Below are positions 13,690-59,665 of a stretch of 64,000 bases of DNA, piece by piece. The notes beneath the pieces are model-generated. The model saw only the letters and a program-made list of their open reading frames with translations. It made no database searches and was not told the DNA's origin. Source of the DNA: Chloropicon primus. Its lineage: Eukaryota. The stretch covers positions 124,001 to 188,000 of the forward strand of contig CP060760.1 in NCBI GenBank assembly GCA_023205875.1, written 5' to 3'. The translations under genes and the position numbers were made by a program. The first letter of the stretch is position 1. Every line of letters starts with the position of its first letter.

Positions 13690-16062
13690 ATGACGACGAG
13701 GACGACGAGGACGACGAGGACGACGCGGGCCTTCAAGCGCCTGGCGTCCAACCAGCAGAGGCGCACGAGGTCGACCCGAGCCGCTTCTTCTTCTTCGGCG
13801 TCGTCTTCGGGTGGCGCCGGTGCGAGGGGCCTCCTTGGCCCGGTGCTTCGGTGCAGATCCTGCGAGAGGTCTTGGGCCAGGCTCCATCATCCGTCCAACA
13901 AGCTTGAGATGCCGCTGACGGTGCCGAGGGCGGTGGAGGAACCCGAGGGCGTTCAGGTGCGGGATCGAGGGACGGGAACCAAGGTGACGCTCCTGGGGGG
14001 CAAGGGCGGGGTGGGGAAGACGACGATGGCAGCGAGCTTCGCCGTGAGCGAGGCGAAGAGGACGCAGCTCCCGACGCTCATCGTGTCGACGGACCCCGCA
14101 CATTCCCTCGGGGACGCCCTCGGGCAGGACGTCAGCGGCGGAAAGCCAGTCCTGGTGGAGAGCTACACGTCCCTTCCGCTCTGGGCCCTGGAGATCGACC
14201 CGGCGAAGGCCAAGGAGGAGATCAGCGCCAAGGCCAAGGAGGCCAAGGAGAAGGCGGAGGAGGGCGGGGGCAACCCCTTGGGCTCCCTCACCGGCCTCCT
14301 GAAGTTGGTGGGCGTCGACCTGAACCCCGAAGTGTTCGAGGACCTCAACCTCGGGGAGCTGCTCACCAGCCCGCCTCCCGGCTTTGACGAGATCTTGGCG
14401 GTGGCGAAAATCATGGATTTCGTGGCGGGCCAGCAAGGCAGCGCCTCCGGGGGCGAGAGCCAAAAGTTCTCGAACATCATCATAGACACCGCGCCGACGG
14501 GCCACACCCTCAGGCTCCTTGCCGCCCCGGAGCTCCTAGACAGGTCGCTGGGGAAGGTCCTGGCGGTGAAGAAGATGCTTGACGGGGCCTCGTCCCTCGT
14601 CAAGTCCATCCTCTCTTTCGGTCAGAGGGGCGGGGGTGGTCAGGACGCCGGGGAAGACTCGCTGTCGCAGAGGGTAGAGAAGGCCCAGCTTCGCCTGAGA
14701 GCTTTCGGGGAGCTCCTGCACGACGGGAGGAAGAGCGAGTTTGTTGCCGTGACCATCCCCACGCAGATGGCGGTGAGCGAGACCATTGGCCTGGCCACGA
14801 CCCTGAAGGAGGAGGGGATTCCACTGAGAAGGTGCGTCGTGAATCAGGTGCTTCCTTCAGACCTGGTGGACGGGGGCCTCAAGCTTATCGAGAGCAGGCA
14901 GAAGGACCAGAAGAGGGCGCTCGACATGCTGAGGGAGGACGGAAAACTGTCCCAGCTGGAGCAGCTGCGGTCACCCTTCCTGGACTTGGAGGTGAAGGGC
15001 GTCCCAGCCCTTCAGTACTTTGGGATGGGGCTCTGGCGGGACAGCTCCACGCTGAAGGACTCGGTGACGCAGCGAGACCAGAAATTCGTGATCGTTGGCG
15101 GCAAAGGCGGCGTTGGGAAGACTACGACGTCCTCCTCCCTCGCCCTGTCTTACGCTCAGGAGGGGCACACCGTTCTGATCGTATCCACGGATCCGGCTCA
15201 CTCTCTGGGCGATTCCCTTTGCCAGGACGTTTCCGGGGGGCAGCCCGTGCTCCTGGAAGGCACGGACCTCCCCGTGTACGCCATGGAGATCAACCCGGAG
15301 GAGACCATGGACCAGCTCAGGGGGCTTTTGAGGAAGGTGGAGGAGAGCGACGTGTCGAGCGATCCCGGGGCGCAGGGCAACCCCAAGCTCGATCTGGGAA
15401 ACATTCTTGAGAAGGTCCAGGACTTGAAGCTCGAGGAGCTCTTGGAGGACCCCCCGCCTGGCACGGACGAGGCCATTGCCGTCGCAAAGGTGGTCCAGTT
15501 TGCGGAAAAGCCCGAGTTCGAGAAGTTCACGAGGATTGTGATCGACACGGCGCCGACGGGCCACACGCTGAGGCTCCTCACCTTGCCATCTTTCATCGCT
15601 CTGAGCATCGACAAGATTCTCAAGTTCAGGAGCGTGATCTCCCAGCTCGCGGGCAAGTCAAAGGGTGACTTGGCCATCGAGAAGCTGCAGGAGCTCCAGA
15701 GGCAAATGGATGACGCCCAGAGCCTATTCAGGGACAACACCAAGACGGAATTCGTCATCGTTGGCATTCCAACGTACCTGTCCGTGGCGGAGTCCTCGAG
15801 GCTCGTGAGGGCTCTGGAGGACGAGAAAGTGTTCGTGAGGCACCTCGTCGTGAACCAGATTCTGGATTTCGAGTCCAAGGAGGAGGAGAAGATCAAGAGG
15901 TTCGTCACCTCAAGAATGAAGGAGCAGGAGTCCGCCCTCGGCGCTCTCGAGGAGGCCCCGAGCATCCAGGGCTTGGAAGTCTCCCGCGCCCCGGTCATCA
16001 ACATGGAAGTCAGGGGAGTTCCTGCGCTCGAGTACTTTGCCTCCCTCGTTTGGGACCCATAA
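13690..16062 (+). CDS. ARSA1: Tandem two-domain ArsA/GET3 ATPase with organellar transit peptide (ARSA1-like)
   Basis: Two copies of GGKGGVGKTT, STDPAHSLGD, PPPGxDE, IDTAPTGHTLRLL, VVNQ. Confidence 0.9.
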   Translation: MTTRTTRTTRTTRAFKRLASNQQRRTRSTRAASSSSASSSGGAGARGLLGPVLRCRSCERSWARLHHPSNKLEMPLTVPRAVEEPEGVQVRDRGTGTKVTLLGGKGGVGKTTMAASFAVSEAKRTQLPTLIVSTDPAHSLGDALGQDVSGGKPVLVESYTSLPLWALEIDPAKAKEEISAKAKEAKEKAEEGGGNPLGSLTGLLKLVGVDLNPEVFEDLNLGELLTSPPPGFDEILAVAKIMDFVAGQQGSASGGESQKFSNIIIDTAPTGHTLRLLAAPELLDRSLGKVLAVKKMLDGASSLVKSILSFGQRGGGGQDAGEDSLSQRVEKAQLRLRAFGELLHDGRKSEFVAVTIPTQMAVSETIGLATTLKEEGIPLRRCVVNQVLPSDLVDGGLKLIESRQKDQKRALDMLREDGKLSQLEQLRSPFLDLEVKGVPALQYFGMGLWRDSSTLKDSVTQRDQKFVIVGGKGGVGKTTTSSSLALSYAQEGHTVLIVSTDPAHSLGDSLCQDVSGGQPVLLEGTDLPVYAMEINPEETMDQLRGLLRKVEESDVSSDPGAQGNPKLDLGNILEKVQDLKLEELLEDPPPGTDEAIAVAKVVQFAEKPEFEKFTRIVIDTAPTGHTLRLLTLPSFIALSIDKILKFRSVISQLAGKSKGDLAIEKLQELQRQMDDAQSLFRDNTKTEFVIVGIPTYLSVAESSRLVRALEDEKVFVRHLVVNQILDFESKEEEKIKRFVTSRMKEQESALGALEEAPSIQGLEVSRAPVINMEVRGVPALEYFASLVWDP

Positions 16063-53169: not shown

Positions 53170-53837
53170 ATGGCTGACGGTCAACCAAAGAGGAGAACAT
53201 TCCGCAAGTTCACGTTCAGGGGCATCGACCTCGAACAGCTTCTTGACATGAACAAGAACGAGCTCGTGGACCTGTTCTGTGCCAGACCTAGGAGAAAGTA
53301 AGTGTCGCGTCGTTCGGTCCAACCCAACGCAACCCAAGCGACGAGGAGGAGGAGGAGGAGGAGGAGGAGGAGGACGTCGTTGATGATGCTCGTGTCCTTC
53401 CTCGATCACCCGCGCGCCTCCGTTTGCTGATGGGGAACGAACGAACGAACGAACGAATGAACGTCGTTTGCTGATGCGAATTTTTCTTTTTTGCTTGGTT
53501 ACGTTTGTCTCTCCCTGTGTGCGTTTTCAGGTTCCAGCGTGGCTTGAAGAGAAAGGCCCACGCCTTGATCAAGAAGCTTAACAAGGCCAAGAAGGATGCC
53601 CCAGCCGGAGAGAAGCCAGAGGCTGTTAGAACCCACCTGAGGAACATGATCATTGTTCCAGAGATGATCGGATCTGTCGTCGGTGTGTACAACGGAAAGA
53701 GCTTCAACCAGGTCGAAATCAAGCCTGAGATGCTCGGACATTACTTGGGAGAGTTCTCCATTACTTACAAGCCAACCGCTCACGGAAGGCCAGGTATTGG
53801 TTCCTCCACCTCTTCCCGCTTCATTCCATTGAAGTAA
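53170..53837 (+). CDS. RPS15: 40S ribosomal protein S15 (uS19; intron 53298-53530)
   Basis: [44 protein letters not shown]. Confidence 0.97.
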
Positions 53838-53972: not shown

Positions 53973-55595
53973 TTATTGTTTTTCACCGGCCATCACGGCC
54001 ATCCCCTGCAGGGCGACCTTCCTGTCCGCTCCCCCGCTCGCCAGGGTCCCAGCAGAGAACCAGTCCAGGCAGAGAGCCTTGTCGCCGTGCAGCTCGATGC
54101 TGTGCAGCGGCATCGAGCTCCTCATGTCCCAAACCTTGACGAGCCCGTCATAGTCGCAGGACGCGAAGTGGAAGGGCGAGGAGGGGCTCCACCGAATGTC
54201 CGCAACGACGGCCTTGTGGGACTTGAACGACTTCACGGTCGCCAGCGCCATGCCGGTGCCCTTTTCCTTGGCCCTGAAGGACTCCCTTGGATCCCAAACG
54301 GCGACGAGGCCGTCCGCTGACCCAAAGGCTAAGCTCAGGCTCCCGCTGTGCCCCGCGTCCCGGGAGGAGTCCAAGCAAAACAGGGCGCTGTCCCTGATGA
54401 GGTTGGAGACCATCTTGCCCTTGGAGACGTCGAAGCACTTGACGGTGCAGTCCCAGGACGCGGAACAGATGAGGTTCTCCTCGGGCCAGCACACGCTGGA
54501 GATGCACTGCTTGTGACCCTCGAGAAACGTCGTCTCCACTTGCTCCAAGCTAACGGTGTTCTCAGGGAGCTCCTCCGTCGCCTTCTTTTGCTTCTTCGCA
54601 GCGTTCAGCTGCGACCCGGCAATGTCCTCCTCGTCTATGCTCCACACCCTGACCTTTTGATCCCAACCGCCACTGCAGAACCTGCCGCAGCCAGGGCTCG
54701 AGGCGACGCTCTCCACTCCCCCGGTGTGGCCCACGAACTCAAAGACCTGGACGAGGTCGAGCCCGGTGGCCCCGGCCTTGCCGCCTGCCCCCTTCTTCCT
54801 CCTCCTCTTGCCGCCGTCCCCCCCCGCCTCTCCTCCCGCCTTGTTCACGAACCAGCCTCTCATGCTGCTGTCCTTCGACGCCGTGACCAAGATCTGACCA
54901 CCTCCGTGCATGGAGGAGACCGATGAATCGTCGCCTTGCGGCCCTTCCTCGCTCACCTTCACCACCGCCAGGGCAGACACCGAGTCACTGTGTGCGACCT
55001 TGCTCCCCTGCAGCACCTCGCCCTCGCCCGAAGAGGTCCTGTGCATGCTCACTCCTCCGTCGTAACTTCCCGAGAACAGCAAGTCTCCGTGACCCCGCAC
55101 CGCTCCAACCCAATCCGGAAGATCCAGCTCTTTCGGCTGAGAGCGCAAAGGCAGAGGTCAGTAAGGCATCGGGCGGCAATCCCATTCCCTGGACACCGGA
55201 GAGGCCAGCAACCACCGAAAAGGGATGGACCCATGGGTGTGTGCGTGTGTGTGTCAAAGCATTGCCTCGCGAGCAAAAGGAATACTTACCGGTTGCGGTG
55301 GCTCCAAGGCGAAGAAGTATTCGATCACGATGGTCTTCTCGACGGAGAGTCCCCTCTTCGCCAAGTGCCGGGCGAGCTCCCCTCGTAACAGCTCTCCCGA
55401 CACGAGAAAGTCGAAGACCTTTGGACCCTCTTCATCGTCCTCGTCCGCGGTGCTAAGGAGCGCGTTGATCGTCTGGCTCAAGCCGTAACGCGTCGAGTTC
55501 GAAGGAAGAGCGATATCCGTCGACGGCACCTTCAACTCGTCCGGAAGCTTCGTCACGAACCGGCACAGAACCTTCTGACTCGCATCCGTCTCCAT
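53973..55595 (-). CDS. WDR12: Ribosome biogenesis protein WDR12/YTM1 (NLE domain + WD40; intron 55137-55289)
   Basis: RYGLSQTINALL...FDFLVSGELLR...VEKTIVIEY NLE domain; DWV...SGSYDG; WD repeats. Confidence 0.9.
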
Positions 55596-55873
55596 CGTGG
55601 CGGCTTGGCTTGGTTTCCTGAATGAATTTGAGAGATTGGCCTCCTCGCCCTGGAGTCTGGAGTGCTGGATGGATGGAGTGGCCATGATTGCTTGGGTGTG
55701 TCCGTGCATGGTGGGGCCAGGACCAGGACCACCCCGTTTCTCAATTCTGGTTCTGGGTCCTGGTGCCTCTACCTCTCCTCTTTTGTATCAATCATGCATC
55801 GTAACGATCGAGGACAAGGGGGACAGGGGTGGATCGAGGCCTTCAACAAAAAGGGGCTTGGGTTGCTTGTCGC

Positions 55874-58800
55874 TTAGAGTTTAGACGCAATTTTATTCAT
55901 GTGGTTCATCCTGGCGCTTTCCACCCCGCTCCTCGGATCGACAAGGACGTTGAACAGGGCCGGCTTTCCTTGGAGAAGGGCAGAGCGGAGGTTCTGTGCC
56001 AGCGCATCGGGATGGTAGATTGAGTGTCCCTGCCCGTGGAAGGACTTCATGATCATCTCGTACTGGGAGCCTGGGACAAAGTCCGTTGGCGCGGGGTCTT
56101 TCCCGAACCCAGCGGCCTCCATCCCCTTCTTCGCCTTCGTTTTGGTGCCCTCCTCCCTCCTGTCCCCCCCATAAATTCCACCGTTGTTGAGGACTACTAC
56201 TACGACTTTCAGGTCATACCTTGCGATCACCTCGCACTCCATGGCAGAGAAGCCGAACGCAGAGTCTCCCAACACGGCCAGAACGGGCCTCTCCGGATCG
56301 TTAAGGGCGGCCGCAACGGCGTAGCCCAAACCTACGCCCATCGTCCCCATCGTCCCCGAGTCCAGCCTCGTTCTCGGAACGTTGACCTCAATGGCCTGCC
56401 GCCCAATGTCCATCGTGTTCGCCCCCTCGTTCACAAACACGGGCTGCACGCCGTGGCCTGCCGCGAGATCCTTCAGGACGCCGTCGATGACGCCAAAGAC
56501 TTGGTAAAATCCCATCAGGTCGGTAGCCTTCGAAGCAAGCTTGGTCCGCAGATCCTCCTTCTTCGCTTCCTTCTCCTTCTGAAGAGCCTGGACCCACTTG
56601 GAGACCTTGGCAGCCGAGTAACCACTCTTGTACAGCGCGTTGCTCAGCTGCGAGACCACTGTTTTCGCGTCCCCCGGCAAGTAGAGGTTGGTGGTCCGCA
56701 GGCAATGCTTGCTTCTCTTCTTCGCGTCGAGGGTGTCCACCACGATGAACTTGGCGCTCTTTGACCATTTCGGAGCCTCTCCAAAGGACCACTGCCAATT
56801 CAGTCGCGTCCCGAGGACAAGGACCACGTCACACTCCTTCATCGCTTTCGATCTGGCAGCCCCCACGCACAGGTCGTGTGCATCAGGAATCAAGCCCTTG
56901 CCCATCGGGCTTGGGAGGCAGGGTATGCCGGTCAACTTCACAAAGTCTTCGAGCTCGGTTTCTGACCTCGAATACGCTGCCCCCTTCCCCACAATGATCA
57001 TTGGCCTCTTCGCCCTCAGCAGCAGAGCTGCAGCCTTTTCCACCTTTGCGTTATCTGCCGCGAAGCGGAAGATGTCCTGAGTGACGTGCTTGACATCCCT
57101 GAGGACCCTGGCGTCGTCGATCGGCCCGACGGTTGAGAACAAGATGTCCGCGGGAATGTCAACGTAGACGCCGCCAGGCCTGCCCGACAGAGCCTCGTGC
57201 ACCGCAGCAGACAAGACTCTGCCGGTTTGAGAGATCTTCTTGATCTGAAAGACCGCCTTGCAGTGGGGCCTCGCAGCTTTGCACTGGTCGATCTCCTGGA
57301 AGCCCCCCTTGCCAACACGCTTCCTCTCCACGGAGCCGGAGATCATGATCATCGGCCAGCAATTTTCCGTAGCATTCGAAAGTCCCGCCAGCCCGTGAAC
57401 GACTCCTGGACCAGACACGGTGAGCAGCACCGCTGGCTTACCCGTAAGGAAGCCCAGGCAGGAGGCGGCATAACCAGCAGATTGCTCGTTCCTGAACCCG
57501 ATGAATCGTATCCCTTGAGCTTGCGCAGAAGTCGCCAGCTGGGTCACCGGTATGCCGACGATTCCCAGCATGTGCTTCACCCCGATGGCCGACAGGCACT
57601 TTGCAACCGACTCGAATCCCTGAACGTCCGCTTGCTCCTCCTGCTCTGCTTCTGCGCCCCCTCCTGCTCCCCCCCTCCCGGCTTTGACCTGGTCTTGCAC
57701 GAACGATCTGACCATTCTCCTCTGTATTTTGCCCGTGGGGGTCTTGGGCATGACTTCGAGGTAGTGAAACTTGATGGGGATCTTGAACGTCGCTAGTTTG
57801 GGCTTGCAGTGAGCCAGGAGCTGGGCCTCAGACACGCTGCTTCCGTCCTTGACGACGACAGCTGCATGGACAACTTCCCCGTACTTCTCATCTGGCATGC
57901 CAAAGGCCACAGCCTCCGCGAGCGAGGGGTGGGAAAGCAGGGTGCTGTCGATCTCCAATGGCGATATTTTCTCCCCGCCCCTGTTGATGAGCTCCTTCAG
58001 CCTCCCGGTCAGCGTCAGGTACCCGTTCTCGTCGAGCCAGCCTTGGTCCCCGGTGTGGAACCAGCCGCCAGCAAAGGCCTCCGCCGTGGCCTTTGGGTTG
58101 TTCAGATACCCTGGGGTGACGTTGGGGCCCCGGATGCAGACCTCGCCGACCGATCTTGGGGGCAGCTCGTTTAGCTTGTCGCCCAAAATCGTGACCTGGA
58201 CGCCCATCCCTTTGCCCACGCTCCCGGGAATCCTCTTGCCGTACTTGGGAAGGGGGTTGCTCGTCATCTGGTGGCACGCTTCAGTCATCGCGTACGCCTC
58301 CACCACAGGGGCCCTGAAAGTGGTCTCCAGTTTGGTCAGGATGGCAGGCGCGAGGGACGAGCTTGAGCTCCTGATCAGCCGCAGGGGCGGGGGATCGTCG
58401 GCGGGATAGTCCTTGCCGGCCCTGAGAAGGAGGACTTGGTGGATGGTGGGCACGGCCGTGTACCAGGTGATGCGGAAGTGCCTGGCGTCTTTCCAAAACA
58501 TGTTTGCGCTGAACGCCCCGCCCGACGGGATGACGACCTGAGACCTCGACGCCAGCGCCGTCAGCAGGCCGCACATCAGGCCGTGGACGTGGAACAGCGG
58601 CATCACCAAAAGGGAAACGTCCTTTGGTCCGAATTCGTACGTTCTCCTTATGTTCGAAATCGAGGCGCAGATGTTGGCGTGGGTCAGCGGAACCCCCTTG
58701 GGCTTGCTGGTCGTGCCGGAGGTGTGCAGAAGCAGCGCGACTTCTTGGGGCCTCGGGAGATCCGACAGCGCGGCGTCGGAGCTCCCGGTCGCCCTCAGGA

Positions 58801-59329
58801 GCACCCCGCTCGCCACGTCCCAAACGGTGAAGAGGACGCCGCCCCACTCCGGGTCGTTCACCGCGGCGATTTGGAAAACTCGAATTCCCAGGTCCCTCGC
58901 TGCCTCTACGGCCGCCTCGGGAGCGCCCGTCGCCGGCAGCAGGACCGCCGCCGCCTTCTGGTCCTCCAGGTAGAAGAGGTACTCGTCTTTCGTGTACTTT
59001 GGGTTCAGGGGGGCCGCGACCGACCTCGCGATCGTTGTCCCGATGAAGGCGCCCGCGAAGGCGACGCTGTTCGGCATGACGATGGCCGCCACCGCTCCCG
59101 GCGTCAACACGGGCTGCGCATTGGAAGGCGACCTCAGGAGGTGGGCCAAGTTAAGCAGGGCCTTGTTGAGGTGGCCAAAGGTGATCGGCTTCAACCGCTC
59201 TTCCTCCGGGTCCTTTCCCCCAGGCACGTTCCCTGCTTTGGGCAGCCCCGCCTGGAAGCAAACAGCCCTCGACACCTCCCTGGTCTCCCCTTCACTCAGC
59301 AGTATCGCCTCGGCGAGCGTCCTCGACAT
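55874..59329 (-). CDS. Peroxisomal fusion: oxalate-CoA ligase (AAE3/Pcs60-like) + ThDP-dependent oxalyl-CoA decarboxylase/2-hydroxyacyl-CoA lyase
   Basis: HTSGTTSKPKGV, PLFHVHGL, EAYAMTEACHQMTSN, GWFHTGD, PKTPTGKIQR; Gly linker; GIVGIPV, RNEQSAGYAA, EGANTMDIGR, GDSAFGFS...NN; C-terminal SKL. Confidence 0.9.
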   Translation of the reverse strand: MSRTLAEAILLSEGETREVSRAVCFQAGLPKAGNVPGGKDPEEERLKPITFGHLNKALLNLAHLLRSPSNAQPVLTPGAVAAIVMPNSVAFAGAFIGTTIARSVAAPLNPKYTKDEYLFYLEDQKAAAVLLPATGAPEAAVEAARDLGIRVFQIAAVNDPEWGGVLFTVWDVASGVLLRATGSSDAALSDLPRPQEVALLLHTSGTTSKPKGVPLTHANICASISNIRRTYEFGPKDVSLLVMPLFHVHGLMCGLLTALASRSQVVIPSGGAFSANMFWKDARHFRITWYTAVPTIHQVLLLRAGKDYPADDPPPLRLIRSSSSSLAPAILTKLETTFRAPVVEAYAMTEACHQMTSNPLPKYGKRIPGSVGKGMGVQVTILGDKLNELPPRSVGEVCIRGPNVTPGYLNNPKATAEAFAGGWFHTGDQGWLDENGYLTLTGRLKELINRGGEKISPLEIDSTLLSHPSLAEAVAFGMPDEKYGEVVHAAVVVKDGSSVSEAQLLAHCKPKLATFKIPIKFHYLEVMPKTPTGKIQRRMVRSFVQDQVKAGRGGAGGGAEAEQEEQADVQGFESVAKCLSAIGVKHMLGIVGIPVTQLATSAQAQGIRFIGFRNEQSAGYAASCLGFLTGKPAVLLTVSGPGVVHGLAGLSNATENCWPMIMISGSVERKRVGKGGFQEIDQCKAARPHCKAVFQIKKISQTGRVLSAAVHEALSGRPGGVYVDIPADILFSTVGPIDDARVLRDVKHVTQDIFRFAADNAKVEKAAALLLRAKRPMIIVGKGAAYSRSETELEDFVKLTGIPCLPSPMGKGLIPDAHDLCVGAARSKAMKECDVVLVLGTRLNWQWSFGEAPKWSKSAKFIVVDTLDAKKRSKHCLRTTNLYLPGDAKTVVSQLSNALYKSGYSAAKVSKWVQALQKEKEAKKEDLRTKLASKATDLMGFYQVFGVIDGVLKDLAAGHGVQPVFVNEGANTMDIGRQAIEVNVPRTRLDSGTMGTMGVGLGYAVAAALNDPERPVLAVLGDSAFGFSAMECEVIARYDLKVVVVVLNNGGIYGGDRREEGTKTKAKKGMEAAGFGKDPAPTDFVPGSQYEMIMKSFHGQGHSIYHPDALAQNLRSALLQGKPALFNVLVDPRSGVESARMNHMNKIASKL

Positions 59330-59334
59330 GTCGT

Positions 59335-59665
59335 TCGATTAGCGCCACGAGTCTCGTATCCCCTCCTCCTCGCCTTACTCCTCCGCCGTTTTCCTCGAGC
59401 GAGGGCTCTTTGGAAAGACGAACGCGAGACACTTCCACTGGTTCGGTCCTCCCGATGTCTCCCTTCCCCTTCCTCCCGATGTCCTCGAGCCCCTCTGTCG
59501 ATTAGCACCACAAGTCTCCTCCCTCTCGTATCGTATCCCCTCCTCGCCTCACTCCTCCGCCGTTTCCGTCAAGCGAGGGCTCTTTGGAAAGAAGAACGCG
59601 AGACGCTTCCGCTGGTTTGGTCCTCCCGATCTGTCCCTTCCCCTTCCTCCCGATGTCCTCGAGCG
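59335..59665 (+). repeat. Tandem duplication of a ~165-175 bp unit directly upstream of the ligase-decarboxylase ATG
   Basis: tcgattagc(g/a)ccac(g/a)agtctc at 59335 and 59498; gagggctctttggaaaga at 59401 and 59575; cccttccccttcctcccgatgtcctcgagc twice. Confidence 0.92.

What the first reader, a model, noticed from the sequence alone, without database searches (positions are those of the whole stretch)
55874..59329. Single-chain peroxisomal oxalate-degrading enzyme: oxalate-CoA ligase fused to oxalyl-CoA decarboxylase
Seen: one uninterrupted 1151-aa ORF. It has a complete ANL-family acyl-CoA ligase (to ~57680), a short Gly/Glu linker (GRGGAGGGAEAEQEEQ, ~57617-57679), a complete ThDP enzyme, and a PTS1 (-SKL). 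Knowledge: the ligase motifs (PLFHVHGL, EAYAMTEAxHQMTSN) are those of Arabidopsis AAE3/yeast Pcs60 oxalate-CoA ligases. The second half matches the OXC/HACL1 family. These catalyse consecutive steps (oxalate -> oxalyl-CoA -> formyl-CoA + CO2) and are separate genes in the plants and yeast I know. Inference: a Rosetta-stone fusion that may channel oxalyl-CoA inside the peroxisome, and that argues the algal HACL-like domain acts on oxalyl-CoA. I cannot confirm whether such fusions have already been described.
Basis: partly seen in the sequence, partly recalled or inferred. Interest (0 to 1): 0.88.

Follow-up and report, generated by a model that had tools for sequence, protein, structure and literature searches.

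The report
Ancient fused oxalate-breakdown enzyme
This gene joins, in one protein chain, the two enzymes that likely carry out the first two steps of oxalate breakdown, plus a predicted peroxisome address tag; the same fusion sits unremarked in database proteins of many algae, mosses and liverworts, and trees suggest that vascular plants split it into the two separate genes known today.

Summary
The 1151-aa ORF is real. A spliced-RNA run has one contig that crosses the linker. The N-half is an AAE3/Pcs60-type oxalate-CoA ligase with 7 of 8 oxalate-pocket residues. The C-half groups with bacterial and Arabidopsis oxalyl-CoA decarboxylases (OXC), not with HACL/HACS, and keeps the OXC Tyr/Ser pair and C-terminal loop.

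The fusion is not special to this genome. 53 other proteins have it, from chlorophytes, streptophyte algae, liverworts, Sphagnum, Galdieria, Chromera and an apicomplexan. Stand-alone AAE3 of vascular plants and OXC of flowering plants nest inside fused lineages (AU p 0.004 and 6.5e-46), which points to fission.

A PTS1-like tail occurs in 21 of 48 full-length fusions, in none from named streptophytes or Galdieria. The linker is variable and disordered, so a tether is likelier than a channel. Activity and location are untested.

Ten paper searches found no description of the fusion, but three key papers were not available. The scan had not noted it before. Verdict: new variant of a known pathway, interest 0.5.

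The parts
55874..59329 (-). Intronless ORF, 1151 aa (P0001): oxalate-CoA ligase fused to oxalyl-CoA decarboxylase, with PTS1
57686..59329 (-). AAE3/Pcs60-type oxalate-CoA ligase half (residues 1-548); P-loop T203, D428, R443, K534
58577..58600 (-). PLFHVHGL motif (244-251); V248/H249 = AtAAE3 V215/H216 of the oxalate pocket
58361..58366 (-). S322-S323 = AtAAE3 C288-S289; C288 is Ser here and in the two closest relatives (3 of 48 fusions)
58256..58300 (-). EAYAMTEACHQMTSN motif (344-358); A347/M348/H353 = AtAAE3 A313/M314/H319
57632..57679 (-). Gly/Glu-rich linker (551-566); predicted disordered (pLDDT under 50 at 553-565); not conserved among fusions
55886..57628 (-). ThDP enzyme half of the OXC clade (568-1148): catalytic E615, F677/Q678 as in AtOXC, GD...N motif 1021-1049, Y1053
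55910..55921 (-). OXC-type C-terminal active-site loop E1137-S1138-A1139-R1140 (O. formigenes E552-S553-G554-R555; M. extorquens E567-S568)
55877..55885 (-). C-terminal SKL, canonical peroxisomal targeting signal 1 (location predicted, not tested)

Best explanation
The gene encodes one chain holding a complete oxalate-CoA ligase and a complete oxalyl-CoA decarboxylase, which likely turn oxalate into formyl-CoA and CO2 in two steps, predicted to happen in the peroxisome. Step 1 (inferred from pocket residues and nearest structures): oxalate + ATP gives oxalyl-AMP, then + CoA gives oxalyl-CoA + AMP + PPi. Step 2 (inferred from clade and active-site residues): ThDP activated by E615 attacks oxalyl-CoA, CO2 leaves, and the carbanion is protonated through water held by Y1053/S1138, releasing formyl-CoA. 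The decarboxylase half would dimerise or tetramerise like other OXCs, carrying the ligase halves on flexible linkers. The fusion would then fix a 1:1 ratio, allow import by one PTS1 and keep oxalyl-CoA close to its consumer: a tether, not a tunnel (inferred). Formyl-CoA would go on to formate by an enzyme that is unidentified even in plants. The fused state is old and widespread (shown in database proteins); flowering-plant AAE3 and OXC most likely arose by fission in the vascular-plant line (inferred from trees).
For: Ligase: the best solved relatives are all oxalate-CoA ligases (5ie0 484 bits, 6qjz 479, 8aff 424; the next family 219). 7 of 8 AtAAE3 pocket residues are kept, including S289 and H319, described as specific to this family (PMC8905533). 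ThDP half: it sits in a 60-row clade (SH-aLRT 100, of 80 rows) with bacterial OXC and angiosperm OXC, apart from bacterial HACS and fungal HACL (99 in the 35-row tree). Holding it with HACL/HACS is rejected, p-AU 0.0145. It has the Tyr and Ser whose loss cuts M. extorquens OXC kcat from 98 to 1.3 and 5.5 per s, while human HACL gives under 1 per min (PMC7154664); both residues are present in 48 of 48 full-length fusions. The ES-x-[RHN] loop marks 50 OXC-type GTDB loci and KPQ marks 28 HACS-type loci, of 80. F677/Q678/Y1053 equal AtOXC F120/Q121/Y488 (PMC9090294); identity to the Arabidopsis protein P0122 is 48%. The model fits OXC structures at 2.0-2.6 A and HACS at 2.6-3.1 A. An AAE3-like ligase lies within 4 kb of 12 of 50 OXC-type and 0 of 28 HACS-type loci (related genomes, not independent). 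Fission.
Against: No activity or localisation has been measured. By sequence score alone HACS and OXC structures tie (424 vs 420 bits). NCBIfam PRK09259 passes (584 > 557) but TIGR03254 fails (547 < 739). The bacterial Y134/E135 pair is F/Q, as in HACL (also as in AtOXC). This protein has private changes at conserved sites: M994 where 43 of 48 fusions and 117 of 117 stand-alone hits have W, S322 for C, A1139 for G. The trees are quick IQ-TREE runs with SH-aLRT only and an unresolved backbone, so a single origin of the fusion is not shown; Galdieria falls outside the green clade. No genome is held, so peroxisome genes, paralogues and downstream enzymes were not checked. Plant AAE3 and OXC are cytosolic (PMC8004701).
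Confidence: 0.72

Rival explanations
1. True channelling: the ligase docks on the OXC dimer and hands oxalyl-CoA straight to the ThDP site.
For: The fusion is kept in the same order across distant lineages. The steps are consecutive. A grass-pea AAE3 binds a partner enzyme in a proposed metabolon (PMC9935904, passages).
Against: Linkers are 14-71 aa, low in complexity and unalignable. The model has pLDDT 86.5 but pTM 0.56 with a disordered linker, which fits two independently placed halves. Flowering plants run the pathway with separate genes (PMC8004701).
Confidence: 0.12
2. The ThDP half works mainly as a peroxisomal 2-hydroxyacyl-CoA lyase (alpha-oxidation of phytanic or 2-hydroxy fatty acids), as its database names say, and the fusion mainly shares a PTS1.
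For: PTS1 as in HACL1; F/Q at the Y134/E135 site; near-equal scores to HACS structures; UniRef names the fusions '2-hydroxyacyl-CoA lyase'; the family is promiscuous (PMC7154664).
Against: OXC clade; OXC-type C-terminal loop; the Arabidopsis orthologue has measured OXC activity and is cytosolic; many fusions lack PTS1; the partner ligase has an oxalate pocket.
Confidence: 0.1
3. The fusion uses oxalate as a one-carbon donor: after CO2 loss the ThDP carbanion adds to an aldehyde, giving a 2-hydroxyacyl-CoA rather than free formyl-CoA.
For: Bacterial OXC has this side reaction and it has been engineered together with an oxalyl-CoA synthetase (PMC7154664; PMC8411744). No formyl-CoA hydrolase is known in plants (PMC9090294).
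Against: The Tyr and Ser that favour protonation over carboligation are kept in 48 of 48 fusions.
Confidence: 0.05
4. Assembly chimera or read-through of two neighbouring genes.
For: GC3 differs between the halves, 0.83 vs 0.74; one chlorophyte annotation lists the halves as two adjacent genes.
Against: DNA and spliced-RNA contigs cross the linker. 53 other proteins share the architecture. Both GC3 values lie within the 0.73-0.89 range of seven neighbouring ORFs. A newer annotation of that chlorophyte species gives one 1126-aa protein.
Confidence: 0.01

Closest known systems
Arabidopsis AAE3 (At3g48990; PDB 5ie0/5ie3) plus AtOXC (At5g17380): CoA-dependent oxalate catabolism
   Same: Same two enzyme families, orthologous by tree; same pocket and active-site residues (F120/Q121/Y488 of AtOXC); same predicted reactions.
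   Different: Two genes and cytosolic in Arabidopsis; one chain with PTS1 here. C288 is Ser; the conserved Trp of the TWG motif is Met.
Yeast Pcs60 (PDB 8aff), peroxisomal oxalyl-CoA synthetase
   Same: Oxalate-CoA ligase with PTS1 (bioRxiv 2022.08.30.505785, passages).
   Different: Stand-alone. The fungal ThDP relatives in my trees are HACL-type, outside the OXC clade.
Bacterial oxalyl-CoA decarboxylase (O. formigenes 2c31, E. coli 2q27, M. extorquens 7ayg)
   Same: Fold (rmsd 2.0-2.6 A), catalytic Glu, Tyr/Ser pair, ES-x-R C-terminal loop.
   Different: Bacteria mostly pair it with a CoA-transferase; Y134/E135 are F/Q here; no ligase-OXC fusion among 80 GTDB loci, though 12 of 50 have a ligase gene next door.
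HACL1 / bacterial HACS (8vzd, 6xn8)
   Same: Same superfamily, similar score, F/Q site, PTS1 in animals and fungi.
   Different: Separate clade; KPQ-type C-terminal loop; very low oxalyl-CoA decarboxylation in the human enzyme.
Database fusions named only in part (Coccomyxa BDA45528.1 'probable 2-hydroxyacyl-CoA lyase at C-terminar half'; Marchantia BBN15885.1 'oxalate---CoA ligase'; Galdieria EME31572.1 'acetolactate synthase large subunit')
   Same: Same architecture and order, 47-50% identity over the full length.
   Different: No functional description found; the Marchantia and Galdieria proteins lack PTS1.

Membership tests
Oxalate-CoA ligase (AAE3/Pcs60/OCS) | ANL two-domain fold with P-loop, ribose Asp, hinge Arg and adenylation Lys | tested here: met
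   T203, D428, R443, K534; fold matches 6qjz/5ie3
Oxalate-CoA ligase (AAE3/Pcs60/OCS) | Oxalate pocket V215 H216 C288 S289 A313 M314 H319 K500; S289 and H319 family-specific | tested here: met
   7 of 8 identical, C288 is S322; S289 and H319 kept
Oxalate-CoA ligase (AAE3/Pcs60/OCS) | Groups with plant AAE3 and fungal Pcs60-like proteins rather than other acyl-CoA ligases | tested here: met
   Score gap to the next family 424 vs 219 bits; inside the clade that holds plant AAE3, sister to fungal rows. No other ANL subfamily was included as an outgroup.
Oxalate-CoA ligase (AAE3/Pcs60/OCS) | ATP- and CoA-dependent oxalyl-CoA formation | not testable with these tools
   needs an enzyme assay
Oxalyl-CoA decarboxylase (OXC) | PYR/R/PP domains, catalytic Glu, GD...N ThDP motif, ADP- and CoA-binding arginines | tested here: met
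   E615, G1021-D1022, N1049, R717/R826/R842/R977
Oxalyl-CoA decarboxylase (OXC) | OXC clade of the OXC/HACL superfamily | tested here: met
   SH-aLRT 100 and 99; HACL/HACS placement rejected, p-AU 0.0145
Oxalyl-CoA decarboxylase (OXC) | Tyr497/Ser568 (M. extorquens numbering) and ES-G-[RHN] closing loop | tested here: met
   Y1053, E1137-S1138-A1139-R1140
Oxalyl-CoA decarboxylase (OXC) | Bacterial Tyr134/Glu135 pair | tested here: not met
   F677/Q678; the active plant enzyme AtOXC also has F120/Q121, so this marks the bacterial subtype only
Oxalyl-CoA decarboxylase (OXC) | Curated HMM cut-offs | tested here: inconclusive
   PRK09259 584 > 557; TIGR03254 547 < 739
Oxalyl-CoA decarboxylase (OXC) | Oxalyl-CoA to formyl-CoA + CO2 | not testable with these tools
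   needs an enzyme assay
HACL1/HACS | KPQ-x-F-x-W type C-terminal loop and HACL/HACS clade | tested here: not met
HACL1/HACS | 2-hydroxyacyl-CoA cleavage | not testable with these tools
   needs an enzyme assay; side activity is possible
PTS1 peroxisomal matrix proteins | C-terminal SKL with basic residues upstream | tested here: met
   ...NKIASKL; strict pattern in 14 of 48 fusions, broad pattern in 21 of 48. The consensus patterns are recalled.
PTS1 peroxisomal matrix proteins | Import into peroxisomes in this organism | not testable with these tools
   no genome held; needs localisation
Channelling bifunctional enzymes | Fixed interface or conserved connector between the active sites | tested here: inconclusive
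   Linker unconserved and disordered; no direct test of an interface succeeded

The most novel reading that the evidence does not exclude
The CoA-dependent oxalate pathway of plants began as one undescribed bifunctional enzyme, already fused in the common ancestor of green plants and perhaps red algae and passed to Chromera and apicomplexans. It is kinetically coupled so that oxalyl-CoA does not build up, works in peroxisomes in chlorophytes, and was split into AAE3 and OXC at the base of vascular plants, freeing oxalyl-CoA/oxalyl-AMP for new uses such as beta-ODAP synthesis. A glaucophyte made a second, reversed fusion with a HACS-type enzyme.
Probability: 0.25. Interest if true: 0.72.

Novelty: new variant of a known kind. 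Interest (0 to 1): 0.5.

Why it matters
Both reactions are known, but the literature I could read treats AAE3 and OXC as separate cytosolic enzymes, and puts moss and Chlamydomonas OXC in trees without mentioning a fusion (PMC9090294, parts 1-2 of 3). If the fusion is the older state, the two plant genes are fission products, Marchantia offers a one-gene knockout of the pathway, and dozens of database entries named HACL or acetolactate synthase are misnamed. A peroxisomal version in chlorophytes would place oxalate disposal beside glyoxylate metabolism (inference) and narrows where to look for the missing formyl-CoA hydrolase. A natural ligase-OXC chain is also the enzyme pair used in engineered oxalate-to-C1 cascades (PMC7154664) and a candidate single transgene for lowering oxalate in crops. 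It is not unique to this genome and brings no new chemistry, hence the moderate score.

Tried and rejected
No whole genome is held, so paralogues, PEX genes and formate enzymes were not checked.

Complex prediction of the two halves (residues 569-1140 with a truncated ligase, 118-545; alignment not used) gave no verdict, scores 0.26 and 0.17 against a mark of 0.34. It is not evidence either way.

No run is on record as RNA. X5 and X6 contigs are fragmentary and do not bridge the linker.

The scan of metagenome contigs with P0254, made to find a prokaryotic source of the eukaryote-type OXC, gave 79 of 80 HACS-like loci without a ligase and 1 fused ORF, L081. No donor was found.

Neighbouring ORFs in the window are housekeeping genes with no link to oxalate (30 ORFs scanned).

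Paper searches that did not describe the fusion: (1 hit; 2; 0; loose, off-topic listing; 2; 0; 8; 2; 9), 75 (0). Not held and not read: Foster 2012 Plant Cell, Yang 2018 Plant Cell, Shockey and Browse 2011. Any of these may mention the algal or moss fusion. No supplements were opened.

Apparent stand-alone chlorophyte ligases were not counted as fissions: for Coccomyxa subellipsoidea the two halves are adjacent gene models and a newer model is fused; the others were not checked. Chlamydomonas reinhardtii, Physcomitrium and Mamiellophyceae do not appear by name among the 120 listed hits; only 7993 candidates were scored, so this is not absence.

Seven bacterial ligase-ThDP proteins (27-30% identity in the ThDP half; the three with Pfam data also carry a carrier domain) were set aside as a different system.
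Full report
OBSERVATION. The window holds one open frame on the minus strand, 59329 to 55874, of 1151 aa ending in SKL. Pfam finds a whole AMP-binding ligase (49-534) and the three ThDP domains (571-1128). A DNA contig spans the whole ORF without a gap (run X1; it may be the source sample). Run X4, from another sample and study, skips two canonical introns nearby (53297-53531 and 55136-55290) that DNA run X2 keeps, so it holds spliced RNA. One X4 contig runs 55853-58508 through the linker, and X4, X5 and X6 contigs end at 55853, 55854 and 55839, just past the stop, where DNA goes on (a weak hint of the 3' end). All 5 of 5 differences seen in the ORF are synonymous. The neighbours are housekeeping genes of a compact, intron-poor eukaryote. 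Its placement among green-lineage rows fits an alga; I did not determine the species.

LIGASE HALF. The three best solved relatives are oxalate-CoA ligases: Arabidopsis AAE3 484 bits, grass pea 479, yeast Pcs60 424; the next family scores 219. The AtAAE3 oxalate pocket is V215, H216, C288, S289, A313, M314, H319, K500, with S289 and H319 described as specific to the family (PMC8905533, passages). Mapped through the alignment, the protein keeps 7 of 8; C288 is S322. Among 48 full-length fusions, six of these sites are invariant, A313 is kept in 47 and C288 in 45.

ThDP HALF. Score alone does not separate HACS (424 bits) from OXC (420-414). PRK09259 passes its cut-off and TIGR03254 does not. Three further tests favour OXC. 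(a) Tree: of 80 rows, a clade of 60 (SH-aLRT 100) holds the query, all ligase-first eukaryotic fusions, angiosperm stand-alone proteins and 12 bacterial OXC. Ten bacterial HACS, two fungal proteins and the glaucophyte fusion lie outside. A 35-row tree without the long branches gives 99, and forcing the query pair with HACL/HACS is rejected, p-AU 0.0145. (b) C-terminal loop: of 80 GTDB loci, 50 end in [EQ]SG[RHN], 28 in KPQ and 2 are cut; the query has ESAR, aligned with O. formigenes E552-R555. (c) Residues: Y1053 and S1138 match M. extorquens Y497 and S568, whose alanine variants drop kcat from 98 to 1.32 and 5.53 per s, while human HACL gives under 1 per min (PMC7154664, part 1 of 3; PMC8411744, passages). 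F677/Q678 differ from bacterial Y/E but equal AtOXC F120/Q121 (PMC9090294), an enzyme with measured OXC activity (PMC8004701, passages). After three close relatives, the next 117 hits of the half are stand-alone proteins at 46-49% identity, the named ones from flowering plants. Against this: M994 replaces a Trp found in 43 of 48 fusions and 117 of 117 stand-alone hits.

HOW COMMON. Of 377 proteins held after searches matched both halves. These are the query, 53 others of the same order and type (some partial), 7 bacterial proteins with a distant ThDP half, and 1 in reversed order. Named carriers include Trebouxia, Coccomyxa, Chlorella, Micractinium, Chlamydomonas eustigma, Polytomella, Ostreobium, Chlorokybus, Mesotaenium, Spirogloea, Closterium, Marchantia, Riccia, Calypogeia, Sphagnum, Galdieria, Chromera and Rhytidocystis (some genus names are read from JGI or EukProt tags). 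Databases name only one half. No named vascular plant among the 120 listed hits has both halves. Selaginella, Diphasiastrum and Adiantum appear with stand-alone ligases of 520-531 aa.

FISSION. Angiosperm OXC groups with the fused Sphagnum and liverwort halves (100), inside fused zygnematophytes (98). Holding all 18 fused rows together is rejected, p-AU 6.5e-46. Vascular-plant AAE3 lies in a clade with fused bryophyte and zygnematophyte halves (99; 100); holding the 16 fused rows together is rejected, p-AU 0.0039. The simplest reading is a fused streptophyte ancestor and a split in the vascular line. The date of the split rests on ligase gene models only, and gene models can be split wrongly, as in Coccomyxa C-169. 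The deep backbone is unresolved, stand-alone protist ligases are interspersed, and Galdieria sits outside the green clade, so one origin for all fusions is not shown. All trees are quick runs with SH-aLRT only. In bacteria an AAE3-like ligase lies within 4 kb of 12 of 50 OXC-type and 0 of 28 HACS-type genes (many are related actinomycetes); in L041 it is directly upstream on the same strand.

LOCATION. A strict PTS1 pattern ends 14 of 48 fusions and a broad one 21 of 48. None of 11 named streptophyte or 5 named Galdieria fusions has one, nor do the 117 stand-alone hits. The tag is added after the conserved OXC end. Plant AAE3 and OXC are cytosolic and fungal Pcs60 is peroxisomal (bioRxiv 2022.08.30.505785, passages; PMC4763187, passages). 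Peroxisomal location here is a prediction.

MECHANISM. Shown: architecture, residues, clade, transcript across the linker. Inferred: oxalate to oxalyl-AMP to oxalyl-CoA, then formyl-CoA + CO2. The AlphaFold2 model has mean pLDDT 86.5, pTM 0.56 and a disordered linker. No solved chain among the listed Foldseek matches covers both halves (TM-score to the query at most 0.46). Linkers vary from 14 to 71 aa with no shared sequence. I therefore favour a flexible tether on an OXC dimer or tetramer (oligomers as in PMC11271303, passages) that fixes stoichiometry and shares one import signal, over a tunnel. That glyoxylate oxidation or ascorbate breakdown supplies the oxalate is recalled knowledge, not tested. 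The fate of formyl-CoA is open even in plants.

NOVELTY. Ten searches of the held library found no description of the fusion. Passages read in PMC10816874, PMC5755239, PMC7700444 and PMC9301600 do not mention it, and PMC9090294 uses moss and Chlamydomonas OXC without comment. Foster 2012, Yang 2018 and Shockey and Browse 2011 were not held; I put the chance that one of them notes it at about one in three. The scan's earlier notes cover bacterial oxalate ligase systems, not this fusion. Verdict: a real, old, widespread and poorly annotated fused variant of a known pathway; interest 0.5.

Noticed in passing
P0047 (Gloeochaete wittrockiana transcript): Reversed fusion: HACS-type ThDP enzyme first, AAE3-type ligase second, ending -SRL. 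The ThDP half lies outside the OXC clade, so it would be an independent fusion; it rests on one transcript and could be a chimera or contaminant.
   Followed up: partly
P0001 residues 322, 994, 1139 (window 58366, 56350, 55915): Changes at conserved sites: Cys to Ser in the oxalate pocket (3 of 48 fusions), Trp to Met in the TWG motif (1 of 48), Gly to Ala in the ESG loop (5 of 48). Effects unknown.
   Followed up: partly
P0381 and P0392: Two chlorophyte ligase-only entries end in -SKL just after the ligase; they may be wrong gene models or a spliced ligase-only peroxisomal isoform.
   Followed up: partly
P0254 and P0415: An unnamed stand-alone OXC with a eukaryote-type tail and an unnamed AAE3-type ligase both come from an ENA contig of 70,712 bases, possibly an unfused gene pair near the root of the clade; the contig could not be fetched.
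   Followed up: partly
L041:2256-5680, L031:33-5704; L028, L033, L036, L049, L057, L062, L064, L076, L080: Bacterial oxc genes with an AAE3-like ligase next door: same strand and upstream in L041 and L031, divergent in the actinomycetes.
   Followed up: partly
P0056, P0060, P0061, P0242, P0251, P0273, P0298: Probably bacterial proteins joining an oxalate-type ligase to a distant ThDP enzyme (27-30% identity), three with a carrier domain between; a separate system.
   Followed up: partly
P0119: A 993-aa protein with a class III CoA-transferase domain fused to OXC, the bacterial analogue of this fusion; single metagenome record.
   Followed up: no
P0063, P0068: Mucoralean entries join a Zn-cluster transcription factor to a Pcs60-like ligase; may be merged gene models.
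   Followed up: no
window 59335-59664: A tandem duplication of about 170 bp just upstream of the start codon (92% identity over 126 nt); part of it has loose ends and high depth, suggesting copies elsewhere in the genome.
   Followed up: partly
window 53973-55709 (-): NLE plus WD40 gene (WDR12/Ytm1-like, name recalled) with a 153-nt intron at 55137-55289 spliced out in run X4.
   Followed up: partly
window 13690-16062 (+): 790-aa ORF with two ArsA/GET3 ATPase domains in tandem.
   Followed up: no
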